A program made the position numbers and the translations under genes. Source: Minisyncoccia bacterium (GTDB lineage Bacteria; Patescibacteriota; Minisyncoccia; Phycocordibacterales; UBA918). From it: 64,000 bases of DNA. Location of the stretch: positions 128,001-192,000 of the forward strand of contig CAXRCZ010000004.1 of assembly GCA_964229335.1 (NCBI GenBank), in the 5' to 3' direction. Under the pieces are notes generated by a model that was not told the DNA's origin, did not search any database, and was given only the letters and a program-made list of their open reading frames with translations. This document shows positions 6,802-30,826 of this stretch, one piece after another; positions within the stretch are counted from its first letter, which is position 1, and each line of letters begins with the position of its first letter.

Positions 6802-8103
6802 ATGCAGAAACTCATATGGACTACAGTCCAACGTCGTATAAACGACCTTATTCCCCAAGAGGTTAATCCTCGTAAAATCACTGACAAACAAATGTCAGAT
6901 CTTAAGCGTAGTCTTAAGAAATATAATTTAGTAGAAATCCCTGCGGTCGATGAAGACGGAAAGATATTGGCAGGACATCAACGTATTAAGGCGATGCAAC
7001 TACTTGGTCGTGGTGACGAGCTGGTAGATGTTCGTGTACCTAATCGTAAACTTACTAAAGAAGAGTCAGAAGAATATCTCATTGCATCAAACAAGCTTGG
7101 TGGAGACTGGGACTTTGACTCTCTTAAAACATTCGATTTCGACACACTTAGCTTTGCCGGTTTTGATGACACCGAATTATCAAACCTGTTCGACACCGAG
7201 GTTGAAGTAAAGGAAGAAAAGTTTGATGTAGAAGAAGAACTAAAGAAGATAAAAACACCTAAGACTAGGCTGGGCGATCTTATTACGCTTGGCAACCATC
7301 GAATCTTATGTGGAGACTCAACTAAGCCAGAAAACCTTAAACGTCTACTTGGTACCGAGAAAGCTTCGATGATATACAGTGATCCCGTCTACAACATCAA
7401 CGTAGATTACGATGGCGGTATTGGTGGAAGGAAGGATTATGGCGGTAATGTAAATGATAAGCGTAGCTTTGAAGAATATAAAAAATTCCTTAGTGACAGT
7501 CTCAAAGCCGCACTAGCGGTATCTGCTAAAAATACCCATGTTTTCTACTGGTGCGACCAAGTCTATATCGGTGTAGTTCAAGACATTTACCGTGAGAACA
7601 AAATACATAACAAGAGAGTCTGCTTATGGTTAAAGAACAACCAAAACCCTGTGCCAACGGTAGCTTTTAACAAGGTCTATGAACCAGTTGTGTACGGAAC
7701 TCGAGGAAAGCCATTCCTATCTACTCAGCATACCAATCTCACTGAAGTGTTGAACAAAGAATTGAGTACAGGTAATGAATTGCTTGAAGAAGTAGACGTC
7801 TTTGTAGATGTTTGGACAGCTAAGCGATTATCTGCAAAGGACTATGAGCACGCAACCTCAAAACCACCTACGCTACACGAGAAAGCTATTAGGCGTTGTA
7901 CGAAGATAAACGACATCATTCTCGATAGTTTTTTAGGTTCAGGTAGCACCCTAATTGCTGGCGAGCAGCTAAGGAGACGAGTCTTTGGCTGTGAACTTGA
8001 ACCACAGTTTTGTGATCTCATCATTCGACGCTATGAGAAGCTGACGGGAGTAAAAGCTAAGGTTGAACATGAAAAAGAACCAAGTACAACCAAAGTTCAT
8101 TAA
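6802..8103 (+). CDS. ParB-N domain plus N6/N4 DNA methyltransferase (phage/ICE type)
   Basis: NPR, ILAGHQR; HRILCGDS, SDPVY, HATSKP, LDSFLGSGST, ELEP. Confidence 0.9.
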   Translation: MQKLIWTTVQRRINDLIPQEVNPRKITDKQMSDLKRSLKKYNLVEIPAVDEDGKILAGHQRIKAMQLLGRGDELVDVRVPNRKLTKEESEEYLIASNKLGGDWDFDSLKTFDFDTLSFAGFDDTELSNLFDTEVEVKEEKFDVEEELKKIKTPKTRLGDLITLGNHRILCGDSTKPENLKRLLGTEKASMIYSDPVYNINVDYDGGIGGRKDYGGNVNDKRSFEEYKKFLSDSLKAALAVSAKNTHVFYWCDQVYIGVVQDIYRENKIHNKRVCLWLKNNQNPVPTVAFNKVYEPVVYGTRGKPFLSTQHTNLTEVLNKELSTGNELLEEVDVFVDVWTAKRLSAKDYEHATSKPPTLHEKAIRRCTKINDIILDSFLGSGSTLIAGEQLRRRVFGCELEPQFCDLIIRRYEKLTGVKAKVEHEKEPSTTKVH

Positions 8104-8542
8104 GGAACTAGCAAAGACTCCTATAGTATCTGTAGCTTGTGAGAAAGTGGGTATTTCTAGACAAACTGCATATCGCTGGATGAAAGAAGATGAAAAGTTC
8201 CTAGAGAAGGTTAAGGAAGCAATGAAAGAAGGTGTTAGTTTGGTTAATGATGTAGCTGAAAGTAACATCTTAAAAGGTATCAAGCAGGGAGATAAAGGAG
8301 ATACTAAGTATTGGCTCAGTCACCGACATGAGTCATTTAGAAAACCACATCGCCATCGTGACGCCCAGTTAGATTTCCTCACTTTTAAACTACTGGAACA
8401 ATATAGCTCCACTGATGCAACGTTTGATCCTTATTCAGAAGCTAAGAAGCAAGCTGCCAAAGCACGAGTTCGAGAAATGCTTGATAAGTGGAAGCCGTTT
8501 TTCCCCGACGAACCGACTAAGTGTAAAAAGCAGAAGAAATAG
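8069..8542 (+). CDS. HTH protein, terminase-small-subunit-like
   Basis: ACEKVGISRQTAYRWMKEDEKF; overlaps the end of the MTase as in phage packaging modules. Confidence 0.65.
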   Translation: MKKNQVQPKFIKELAKTPIVSVACEKVGISRQTAYRWMKEDEKFLEKVKEAMKEGVSLVNDVAESNILKGIKQGDKGDTKYWLSHRHESFRKPHRHRDAQLDFLTFKLLEQYSSTDATFDPYSEAKKQAAKARVREMLDKWKPFFPDEPTKCKKQKK

Positions 8543-9004
8543 TTATTCTGCTTTTACTAGCCAATCACAGGCTATCCAGCCAACTTGTCCTCCAGCATTT
8601 ATCTTGCAGTAATCATTTGCCTCATCGTAAGAAATGACTTCAACAACTGTATGTTCCTTTACTGCACCTATTTTCTTTCGGTCAGTATACGACTGCCAGA
8701 TATTAACTTCTTTTGGTGAGATGTATGCAAATTCTGTTGATTCAACTTTGTACGTTCCTAGTTCGAAGCTGCTTTCTCGTACAGGAGGTACGTATGTTCC
8801 GACGTCATAATTAGTATTGGGTGTACTGCTAGCATCGTTTATTGATGACATTACTACTGATGACATGACCCCAATAAACAATATGATGACTATCAATCCT
8901 CCTAGTCCAATACCTTGTTTGGCTCGACAATGAGGACATCGTCGTGCCTTCTTAGGAATGTCCATCTGACACTCTTTGCATTTCTTTGTTTGTTCGTTTG
9001 ACAT
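8543..9004 (-). CDS. Zn-ribbon/TM/SH3-like hypothetical protein
   Basis: CKEC..CPHC, TM, C-terminal YCKI...GQVGWI; start reassigned to ATG 9004. Confidence 0.65.
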   Translation of the reverse strand: MSNEQTKKCKECQMDIPKKARRCPHCRAKQGIGLGGLIVIILFIGVMSSVVMSSINDASSTPNTNYDVGTYVPPVRESSFELGTYKVESTEFAYISPKEVNIWQSYTDRKKIGAVKEHTVVEVISYDEANDYCKINAGGQVGWIACDWLVKAE

Positions 9005-9172
9005 TAAATTGTGGCTTACGTTTTTAAAAAGGAGCGGATACACAAAGCCCGCTACCAGGAGAGCCGAAGCTCCTACAAGAGTTTCCCCTTGCAACGTAAG
9101 CCACGCCCTGATAACGGGTTCTCTGTGGCTTACGTTTTCGTACCATACCGCCAGAAATCTGTCGGGTTAGGT
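9005..9172 (-). ncRNA. Candidate structured RNA leader
   Basis: 12-bp perfect stem, GAAA- and UUCG-capped hairpins, and a 15-nt direct repeat allowing alternative pairing. Confidence 0.5.
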
Positions 9173-9429
9173 CACTTGTTGTGTAATGAACATAATAACA
9201 GAAATCTGCTATTACTGGGATTGTATCGCTGAAATTAGTGTTTGCTAAGCAAGATGCCTACAGCGTCACAATCGTAACATCTGACGCATATACCTGACCT
9301 TTCTTGAGGTTAGGGTCAGGTTTCAGATTCTGCTCATCTAATTTCTGCAAAAGTTCTATTAATTCGACTAAGTTACTTGCCATATGTGAGAGCTTAGCAG
9401 GACTAGTATTCTCTGGCATTAATATAAAT

Positions 9430-10725
9430 ATGGAAGGAGACATATCTTTGTCAGAGGCACGAGTGAAATATTGTTTATACGCTCGTAAATCTACTGAGTC
9501 AGATGAACAACAGGCATTGTCTATCGATTCTCAGATCAAGGAGATGCAAGCTATTGCTGAGAAGTTGAACCTTAATATTGTTGATGTAAAGCGAGAGTCG
9601 TACTCAGCTAAAGCGTCTGGCAAGCGACCTGTATTTCAAGAGCTACTCAATGAAATAGATTCAGGAAAATATAACGGAATACTCACATGGGCACCTGATA
9701 GATTGAGTCGTAATGCTGGTGACCTAGGTTCAGTCGTTGACTTAATGGATGCGAAGAAGTTAGTTCATATACAAACCTATGGGCAAACTTTCAGTAACTC
9801 ACCAAACGAGAAGTTTCTCCTAATGATTTTATGTTCTCAAGCAAAACTAGAGAACGATAACAAAAGTCAGAATGTACGACGAGGACTCCGAGCTAGGGTT
9901 GAAATGGGATTATGGCCGTGCCGACCACCGACTGGCTATACTAAATTCAAACGTATGGATCAGAAGTGTGAATCTGTAATTGATCCAGAACGAGCGCCAA
10001 TCATTAAGCAGATATTTGAGAAGATTGGTTATGATGGCTGGAGTGGTCGCAAACTCCATATCTGGCTTCGGGATGAATTAGATTTCAAAACTGAGAATGG
10101 TAAGCATCTCAGCCTAGGTAATCTTTATCGTATTCTTGAAAACCATTTCTACTACGGACGGTTTGAATATCCAAAGAATTCAGGGAAATGGTATGACGGC
10201 GCACATGAACCAATCATTACCAAAGAGTTATTCATCATTGTTCAAGAGCAGATTAAGAGTCAAATACTTGAACCACGTTCACAACAAAAAGAATTTGCGT
10301 TTACCAAAGTAATGACGTGCGGACTCTGTGGATCAGGAATCACTGCTGACGAGAAATTCAAGAAACAAAAGAATGGCAACGTCCACCGCTATGTCTATTA
10401 CAAATGCACTCGCACTAAAGATCCTAATTGTGACTGTGGCTTCATCAATGAAAACGACCTCATATCACAACTACAAAACCTGATTGATGATATTGACATC
10501 AAAGTAGTGCCGATGAGAGACAAGATTACTTCTGAGGTTAAAAGATATAAACAATTTCAGCACATGTTACTGGGAAAAGAAGAAAAGATTGCTGTTAGTA
10601 ATATTGATATTAGGAATTATGCGAAGTTCATTTTACAAGAGGGCGATATAGAAGAAAAAAGAGAGTTTCTACGGTGCTTAAAAAGTGCAGTTGTGCTGAA
10701 TAAAAAAGAAGTCTCACTCGTCTAG
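9430..10725 (+). CDS. Large serine recombinase (resolvase, recombinase and Zn-ribbon domains)
   Basis: YARKST, DRLSRN, PPTGY, HEPII, CGLCG...YYKC. Confidence 0.95.
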   Translation: MEGDISLSEARVKYCLYARKSTESDEQQALSIDSQIKEMQAIAEKLNLNIVDVKRESYSAKASGKRPVFQELLNEIDSGKYNGILTWAPDRLSRNAGDLGSVVDLMDAKKLVHIQTYGQTFSNSPNEKFLLMILCSQAKLENDNKSQNVRRGLRARVEMGLWPCRPPTGYTKFKRMDQKCESVIDPERAPIIKQIFEKIGYDGWSGRKLHIWLRDELDFKTENGKHLSLGNLYRILENHFYYGRFEYPKNSGKWYDGAHEPIITKELFIIVQEQIKSQILEPRSQQKEFAFTKVMTCGLCGSGITADEKFKKQKNGNVHRYVYYKCTRTKDPNCDCGFINENDLISQLQNLIDDIDIKVVPMRDKITSEVKRYKQFQHMLLGKEEKIAVSNIDIRNYAKFILQEGDIEEKREFLRCLKSAVVLNKKEVSLV

Positions 10726-30751: not shown

Positions 30752-30826
30752 TGGTGACCCTACGGAGAATCGAACTCCGATTTCCAGGATGAGAACCTGG
30801 CGTCCTAGCCGTTAGACGATAGGGCC
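30752..30826 (-). tRNA. tRNA-Glu (anticodon CTC)
   Basis: GGCCCTA acceptor, CCAGG-TTCTCAT-CCTGG anticodon arm, GTTCGATTC T-loop, encoded CCA; 75 nt. Confidence 0.97.

What the first reader, a model, noticed from the sequence alone, without database searches (positions are those of the whole stretch)
9005..9172. Switch-like structured RNA upstream of the Zn-ribbon/SH3 gene, divergent from the recombinase
Seen on the minus strand: AAAACGTAAGCCACA occurs twice (9124-9138 and 9010-9024, the latter 5 nt before the ATG), with one complementary copy GTGGCTTACGTT (9093-9104) between them. A 12-bp helix can therefore form with either copy. Between lie hairpins TGCAAGGG-GAAA-CTCTTGTA, GAGC-TTCG-GCTC and AGCGGG..TCCGCT followed by CCTTTTT. 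GNRA/UUCG tetraloops indicate an RNA on this strand. Inference: mutually exclusive folds that expose or hide the start region (riboswitch/attenuator-like), or an ncRNA of the mobile element. It matches no family I recognise. The three repeats could instead be DNA-binding sites.
Basis: partly seen in the sequence, partly recalled or inferred. Interest (0 to 1): 0.7.

Follow-up and report, generated by a model that had tools for sequence, protein, structure and literature searches.

The report
LOOT RNA leader with double lock
The flagged stretch is a copy of LOOT, a catalogued bacterial RNA of unknown function, and relatives keep two pairings missing from the catalogue model, one ending in a run of U and one beside the next gene's start codon, which likely make it an on/off leader for swappable cargo genes of a mobile element.

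Summary
In 110 non-redundant LOOT loci I tested two pairings outside the 121-position Rfam model. (1) The main hairpin's loop pairs with the 3' tail and U-run: own pairing beats 95% of swapped partners in 104 of 110 loci, with compensatory changes. (2) A copy of the hairpin's 5' strand lies just before the next ATG in 54 of 110 loci (swapped control 0.9%) and changes with the hairpin. An extended -10 promoter motif precedes 57 of 110. Here three folds lie within 3 kcal/mol. Best reading (inferred): a two-state 5' leader, one fold allowing read-through and translation, the other terminating and masking the start site of exchangeable cargo genes beside a serine recombinase. The trigger is unknown, no RNA data show expression, and trans targets are at most sporadic. 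This scan already reported LOOT with the start box and tail on other DNA; my paper searches found neither in print, but the discovery paper's supplement was unreadable.

The parts
9192..9200 (-). Predicted extended -10 promoter (TG-n-TATTAT); transcription start predicted about 9184-9186
   Evidence: Motif in 57 of 110 loci within 50 nt upstream, 6.5 expected from shuffles, 3 on the reverse strand; present here at 9200. Not listed by the -35/-10 scan. Untested.
9060..9173 (-). LOOT RNA core (Rfam RF03000)
   Evidence: 68 bits, cut-off 46.4, E 1.7e-11, model positions 1-121
9141..9173 (-). P1 hairpin with an 11-nt-type GAAA-tetraloop-receptor-like internal loop (9171-9166 with 9147-9143)
   Evidence: Rfam alignment; loop variants counted in 110 loci; receptor signature from PMC2615604 passage. 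Docking untested.
9125..9136 (-). b0: 5' strand of main hairpin P2 (upstream repeat; 15-nt repeat 9124-9138)
9106..9124 (-). P2 loop: A-rich linker plus segment a, 5' strand of the alternative long helix P5
9093..9104 (-). b: 3' strand of P2, complementary to both b0 and the start box b1
9074..9093 (-). P3 hairpin with GAAA tetraloop
   Evidence: a G/C-GAAA-G/C motif in the P3 stretch of 110 of 110 loci
9060..9073 (-). P4 hairpin (UUCG loop here; variable in relatives)
9040..9060 (-). Tail a' (9060-9048) plus U-rich run (9047-9040): 3' strand of P5, predicted terminator-like end; outside the Rfam model
9033..9053 (-). Small hairpin P6 that can hold a' in read-through RNA; optional in the family
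   Evidence: own pairing beats 95% of swaps in only 29 of 110 loci
9010..9024 (-). b1 start box: copy of b0, ending 5 nt before the ATG
   Evidence: family test
8543..9004 (-). Cargo gene, 153 aa: N-terminal CxxC..CxxC zinc ribbon and a hydrophobic stretch (read from the sequence), C-terminal SH3-like domain
   Evidence: SH3_3 E 1.4e-4, below Pfam cut-off; Atlas look-alikes SH3_3 and zinc ribbon, best score 0.90
9433..10725 (+). Divergent large serine recombinase
   Evidence: Resolvase, Recombinase, Zn_ribbon_recom above cut-off; PHROG integrase
6802..8542 (+). ParB-like/DNA methyltransferase gene and terminase-small-subunit-like HTH gene, convergent with the cargo gene; other wall of the cargo slot
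   Evidence: recurring arrangement in relatives

Best explanation
This is a LOOT RNA that likely works as a two-state 5' leader controlling the cargo gene behind it: one predicted fold would allow read-through and leave the start site free, the other would end transcription and mask the start site. Steps: (1) transcription is predicted to start at an extended -10 promoter about 12 nt before P1 (motif shown, activity inferred). (2) The nascent RNA is computed to fold first into the Rfam structure, with b0 paired to b and segment a held in the P2 loop; the P3 GAAA loop would dock on the receptor-like loop of P1 and stabilise this ON fold (inferred). (3) As the tail emerges, a' plus the U-run can instead pair with the whole P2 loop in a helix of about 20 bp (P5; covariation shown). 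P5 reaches to or into the 3' end of b0, so it is inferred to be incompatible with full b0:b pairing; it ends in a U-rich run like an intrinsic terminator, and it frees b. (4) In read-through RNA the freed b would pair with the box b1 next to the AUG and block initiation, a second lock present in about half of the loci. The trigger I think most likely is folding kinetics plus feedback by the RNA's own freed b strand, not a metabolite, because b is hypervariable between elements (inferred, untested).
For: Rfam hit. P5: own loop:tail duplex median -26.5 against -12.5 kcal/mol for 9,542 swapped pairs; better than 95% of swaps in 104 of 110 and than all swaps in 83 of 110; on a 36-locus alignment 96% of cells paired, 10 of 16 pairs with changes on both sides, slid controls 44-49% paired; RNAalifold finds P5 unprompted; sense strand pairs better than antisense in 107 of 110. 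Box: 54 of 110 loci, against 102 of 11,472 swapped and 50 of 3,300 shuffled trials; 17 of 53 b families; it ends within 8 nt of an ATG in 52 of 54. Energies: the three folds here are -59.0, -59.3 and -61.8 kcal/mol, and the computed order along the transcript is b0:b, then P5, then b:b1; across 108 loci P5 minus Rfam fold has median -0.55, P5 favoured in 60. Promoter motif 57 of 110 against 6.5. Only 24 nt lie between U-run and box here, so the cargo mRNA most likely includes the leader. DNA contigs of four other studies match leader, box and recombinase side with at most 1 difference up to 9007 and then run on into one different gene start: the box belongs to the leader, not to the cargo.
Against: No RNA evidence: of 2 RNA runs laid, one covers only 9336-9509 and the other gives only divergent (under 90%) matches over LOOT. 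56 of 110 loci lack the box; in the phylum-wide draw only 5 of 28 have it. The wobble test on the box is inconclusive: 5 internal b0/b1 differences keep pairing, 5 break it. In full leaders b:b1 beats b0:b in only 17 of 54, so the box needs P2 opened first. P2 and P5 stabilities do not correlate (rho 0.11, p 0.28, n 94), so 'balanced energies' is not shown to be selected. The U-run is imperfect (5 T in 8 here; 5-7 in 90 of 110) and the standard terminator scan, limited to loops of 3-8 nt, finds nothing. The box often copies unpaired A-rich letters in front of b0 too, which pairing alone does not explain. Kin loci are not independent and the energy model ignores pseudoknots and tertiary contacts.
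Confidence: 0.6

Rival explanations
1. Trans-acting antisense immunity RNA of the P4 CI / P1 C4 type: the terminated or processed P5-closed RNA exposes b, which binds b0 and b1 of new transcripts (its own or an incoming element's) and other genes of the element; variation in b would define immunity groups.
For: Same layout as P4 seqA-CI-seqC, with complementary sites upstream and downstream (PMC4825925 passage). 81 distinct b sequences in 110 loci. Sporadic matches near other starts: 11 nt in the first codons of a recombinase (L163), 12 nt likewise (L143), 10 nt at a start (L161); 5 hits against 1.58 expected at 1,526 ORF starts after removing 4 self-matches.
Against: No target before an ATG within 10 kb in 60 loci (0 found, 2.4 expected); recombinase N-termini 1 hit of 43, 0.37 expected, median rank 0.60; within 1.5-2.5 kb 21 sites against 20.5 in controls; no fourth site in this genome. 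No processing data. Feedback on b0 and b1 themselves cannot be excluded and is compatible with the best explanation.
Confidence: 0.2
2. Ligand- or protein-sensing riboswitch: P1-P4 is an aptamer whose docking is driven by a metabolite, ion or element-encoded protein, with P5 and the box as expression platform.
For: Conserved receptor-like loop and GAAA loop; aptamer-then-terminator order; near-equal fold energies.
Against: Downstream genes share no pathway: of 100 first cargo proteins most have no Pfam family, the rest are surface, zinc-ribbon, nuclease, methyltransferase or superinfection-immunity proteins. Invariant positions lie mainly in the receptor-like loop, the GAAA loop and the P5 strands. 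No ligand tested.
Confidence: 0.1
3. Free-standing small RNA with a large-loop terminator (Rfam's 'sRNA' type); the box is a by-product of local duplication without regulatory role.
For: Rfam type 'Gene; sRNA'; own promoter motif and U-run; 56 of 110 loci lack the box; box includes unpaired flanking letters.
Against: Fixed distance of box to ATG in 52 of 54 across 17 sequence families; P5 competes with the conserved P2, which a plain terminator need not do.
Confidence: 0.07
4. The three repeats are DNA sites (protein operators, recombination sites or a target-site duplication).
For: Recombinase next door; a cargo exchange point lies 3 nt after the 15-nt box.
Against: The sequence differs among families yet tracks the RNA helix; P1 lies outside the repeats, so they do not flank the element; P5 has many G-U pairs (343 of 1,893) and prefers the sense strand. 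The exchange point is simply the end of shared sequence, and all four runs show the same single allele.
Confidence: 0.03

Closest known systems
LOOT RNA motif (Rfam RF03000; ZWD collection per PMC7779021)
   Same: Full-length match above the gathering score; same four hairpins.
   Different: The 121-position model stops before the tail; it holds neither P5 with its U-run nor the start box, and types the RNA as an sRNA. No function is given in the passages I could read.
Phage P4 immunity region seqA - CI RNA - seqC (PMC4825925 passage) and phage P1 C4 antisense RNA (recalled)
   Same: Mobile-element leader RNA with one strand complementary to sites upstream and downstream of it, linked to premature termination.
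   Different: No Rfam hit to C4-type families; upstream partner b0 is the adjacent strand of a stable hairpin; processing and trans action untested; downstream genes are variable cargo.
Riboswitch and attenuator expression platforms (general knowledge)
   Same: Mutually exclusive helices, U-run, start-site masking.
   Different: Terminator-like helix encloses two hairpins and the antisense strand; no ligand known; transcriptional and translational locks would be in series.
11-nt GAAA tetraloop receptor (PMC2615604; bioRxiv 10.1101/2024.03.11.584472)
   Same: P1 internal loop has the CCUAAn / nAUGG pattern; the canonical form occurs in 2 of 110 loci and a variant studied in the preprint in 11 of 110.
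   Different: The two commonest LOOT variants (53 and 38 of 110) replace the G-U pair; the passages read do not cover them; docking not tested.

Membership tests
LOOT RNA (RF03000) | Covariance-model score above the gathering threshold over the whole model | tested here: met
   68 bits vs 46.4, positions 1-121
LOOT RNA (RF03000) | Consensus hairpins P1-P4 can form | tested here: met
   cmscan alignment, folding
Intrinsic-terminator attenuator | GC-rich helix directly followed by a U-rich run, with an alternative fold that hides one strand | tested here: inconclusive
   Helix and alternative fold supported by covariation; U-run imperfect; standard scan negative because of loop size
Intrinsic-terminator attenuator | Transcripts end at the U-run | not testable with these tools
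   Only contigs were available; no RNA ends
Translational switch (start-site sequestration) | Co-varying strand pairs next to the start codon | tested here: met
   54 of 110 loci vs 0.9% control; within 8 nt of ATG in 52 of 54
Translational switch (start-site sequestration) | Masked stretch is a Shine-Dalgarno sequence | tested here: not met
   SD-like word in 1 of 54 box loci, 7 of 49 others; masking would act on an SD-less start region
C4 / CI antisense RNAs | Match to the Rfam families of these RNAs | tested here: not met
   Only LOOT and a chance snoRNA hit up to E 5
C4 / CI antisense RNAs | Complementary sites both upstream and downstream in the own operon | tested here: met
   b0 and b1
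C4 / CI antisense RNAs | Processed stable RNA acting in trans | tested here: inconclusive
   Target search mostly negative, weak excess near starts; processing not testable
Metabolite riboswitch | Consistent downstream gene function pointing to a ligand | tested here: not met
   Heterogeneous cargo among 100 proteins scanned
Metabolite riboswitch | Direct ligand binding | not testable with these tools
   Needs probing
Leader-peptide attenuator | Conserved short ORF through the leader | tested here: not met
   Frame from the conserved AUG in P1 is no longer than the other two frames (median 11.5, 11, 11.5 codons; 108 loci)
GAAA tetraloop / 11-nt receptor contact | Receptor sequence pattern plus GAAA loop | tested here: met
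   (sequence pattern only)
GAAA tetraloop / 11-nt receptor contact | Magnesium-dependent docking | not testable with these tools
   Needs chemical mapping or structure

The most novel reading that the evidence does not exclude
LOOT is a protein-free, self-addressed feedback switch of Patescibacteria mobile elements: the terminated RNA exposes a hypervariable 10-13 nt strand that invades the matching hairpin of new transcripts and locks the start of read-through mRNA, giving a burst of cargo expression on entry into a new cell and sequence-specific immunity groups among elements.
Probability: 0.2. Interest if true: 0.8.

Novelty: new variant of a known kind. Interest (0 to 1): 0.52.

Why it matters
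LOOT is a common orphan RNA of ultra-small bacteria (60 of 151 relatives, 30 of 151 genomes drawn across the phylum, own genome counted in both). The extended structure turns 'unknown sRNA' into a concrete model that in vitro transcription, probing and reporter mutants can test without culturing the host, and shows that the Rfam model is truncated. If true it is a compact two-layer switch that serves exchangeable cargo (defence, surface, immunity genes) without a Shine-Dalgarno sequence.

Tried and rejected
Unknown family: rejected. Leader peptide from the AUG in P1: a 40-codon frame exists here (read from the sequence) but no frame bias in 108 loci. General trans-targeting of recombinase or neighbour genes, a lead from note e1-2030063: not general, absent in this locus. 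Target-site duplication or DNA operator: rejected on layout and variability. Wobble test on the box: inconclusive, 5 vs 5. Selection for balanced P2/P5 energies: no correlation. P6 as a universal element: 29 of 110 only. This b family in viral contigs: 0 matches, one exact pattern only. Element ends: no second copy of the tRNA-Glu end on this contig, so boundaries are undefined. Literature: searches for LOOT + RNA motif + riboswitch, 'LOOT RNA' (15), LOOT + Rfam + Candidate Phyla Radiation (25, none), RF03000 (39) returned only Rfam and method papers; two searches returned nothing relevant by listing.

Full report
Observation. The 181-nt strand folds better than 197 of 200 shuffles. The 12-mer occurs exactly three times in the window and no further close copy exists in the 741-kb genome.

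Identity. cmscan gives LOOT (RF03000) at 9060-9173(-), 68 bits against a cut-off of 46.4, over the whole model; it is the only copy in this genome. LOOT was found in 60 of 151 relatives and 30 of 151 genomes drawn across the phylum, the own genome counted in both, and in 0 of 14 control genomes. Nine records with this same hairpin family are titled Paceibacterota, Parcubacteria, Nomurabacteria, Kaiserbacteria, Saccharibacteria or uncultured bacterium, so the host is inferred to be a Patescibacteria (CPR) member and the module appears to cross lineages; these records may overlap the handle loci and are not counted as independent.

What is in print. I saw: the Rfam 14 passage naming LOOT as a metagenomic ZWD family (PMC7779021), a table row in Rfam 15 (PMC11701678), one sentence and one supplementary row in the CaCoFold paper (PMC7657543). 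In the main text of the paper Rfam cites for these families (PMC5737381) the word occurs only as an author name (other passages), and its supplement could not be read; it may bear on novelty. Four searches found no paper giving LOOT a function. Notes of this scan on other DNA already describe LOOT with a start box and a switch-like tail; none covers this place.

Data set. All 88 matches and 29 of the 42 other matches were fetched: 117 loci. Dropped: 5 that could not be parsed, 1 mis-parsed, 1 identical in leader to this locus, leaving 110. Kin are not independent, so counts by sequence family are given where possible.

Start box. The hairpin's 3' strand b finds at least 8 contiguous Watson-Crick pairs downstream in 54 of 110 loci, against 102 of 11,472 swapped and 50 of 3,300 shuffled trials; 17 of 53 b families have it. 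It ends within 8 nt of an ATG in 52 of 54; it is common in the order-level set (49 of 82) and rare in the phylum draw (5 of 28). In the nine records, 7 have the box and 2 do not. Box loci have almost no SD-like word (1 of 54). Against: internal b0/b1 differences keep pairing in 5 and break it in 5 cases, and the copy often includes unpaired A-rich flank.

Tail helix P5. The P2 loop pairs with the tail beyond the Rfam end over about 20 bp including the U-run. Own pairing beats 95% of dissimilar swaps in 104 of 110 loci. On an alignment of 36 hand-picked loci of similar length, 96% of cells pair and 10 of 16 pairs show two-sided changes; slid controls pair 44-49%. RNAalifold predicts P5 without being told (P2 itself is poorly aligned there). 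The sense strand pairs better in 107 of 110 and 343 of 1,893 pairs are G-U, which points to RNA-level pairing. P5 reaches to or into the 3' end of b0, so I infer that it excludes full P2.

Energies and order. In this locus the folds constrained to b0:b, P5 or b:b1 are -59.0, -59.3 and -61.8 kcal/mol; in equilibrium snapshots of growing length b0:b dominates until the tail appears, P5 at the U-run, b:b1 at full length. In 108 loci the P5 fold minus the Rfam fold has median -0.55 kcal/mol, P5 favoured in 60; in 54 full leaders b:b1 beats b0:b in 17. P2 and P5 strengths are uncorrelated. These are model energies without pseudoknots or tertiary contacts. P5 together with b:b1 would be a pseudoknot, with 18-40 nt between U-run and box; its feasibility is an estimate.

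Tertiary motif and promoter. The P1 internal loop follows the 11-nt GAAA receptor pattern (signature in PMC2615604 passage; one LOOT variant is among receptors probed in bioRxiv 10.1101/2024.03.11.584472, passages), and the P3 stretch carries GAAA in 110 of 110. An extended -10 motif lies upstream in 57 of 110 loci, 6.5 expected.

Context. The leader and its cargo gene sit on the minus strand between a methyltransferase plus terminase-small-subunit-like pair and a divergent large serine recombinase. In 110 loci with 1.5-2.5 kb flanks tblastn found recombinase homologs in 32 (20 divergent just upstream), the methyltransferase in 34 and the HTH gene in 30, own locus included. First cargo genes are diverse; of 100 scanned (of 107 extracted) most lack a Pfam family, others are DUF4352, tRNA_anti-like, Ltp, zinc-ribbon, nuclease, methyltransferase or Imm_superinfect proteins. 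DNA contigs from four other studies (X3, X6, X7, X12) match from 9007 upward with 0-1 differences and continue with one different gene start: a single alternative allele, showing cargo exchange at the start codon with the box staying on the leader.

Trans action. No excess of b targets within 1.5-2.5 kb (21 vs 20.5); none just before an ATG within 10 kb in 60 loci, though 10-nt-or-longer matches were 11 against 3.4 expected. Three lie in the first codons of two recombinases and one other gene. Systematically: 1 of 43 recombinase N-termini (0.37 expected; the motif search missed some genes) and 5 against 1.58 at 1,526 ORF starts after removing 4 self-matches. Weak at best, and absent here.

Expression. 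Two RNA runs laid gave no support: one piece over the recombinase 5' region only, and divergent matches over LOOT.

Verdict. A real structured RNA and a member of a known family; it most likely works as a two-state leader with a terminator-like helix and an optional start-site lock (0.6). Closest working analogy is P4 seqA-CI-seqC (PMC4825925 passage), but membership of that family is not met. Function is inferred from covariation and position only.

Noticed in passing
window 3844-30697: Long block of apparent metal-resistance and redox cargo (heavy-metal ATPase-like, ZIP and CDF transporter-like, multicopper-oxidase-like, DsbA-like, DUF305-like genes; names read from the translations, not scanned) on both sides of the recombinase, ending at a tRNA-Glu.
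   Followed up: no
window 30752-30826: tRNA-Glu(CTC) at the island's right edge; two 59-nt near-copies of part of it lie on contig C7, possibly other tRNA-Glu genes or attachment-site remnants.
   Followed up: partly
window 9007: Four studies' DNA contigs carry this leader and recombinase side almost unchanged but a different cargo gene from this point on; 10 of the 20 runs holding the stretch share 0.51-0.55 of its words, consistent with that allele being the common one.
   Followed up: partly
L143 (2.6 kb from LOOT), L163 (2.3 kb), L084 (1.75 kb): The local b strand matches 11-12 nt at or just after the start of a serine recombinase gene; not general across loci.
   Followed up: yes
G081, G022, G031, G041, G056, G141: Genomes with 3 to 6 LOOT matches, with different hairpin sequences among the copies read.
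   Followed up: no
window 9145-9025 (-): A 40-codon open frame runs from the AUG in P1 to a stop at the edge of the box; not conserved in the family.
   Followed up: yes
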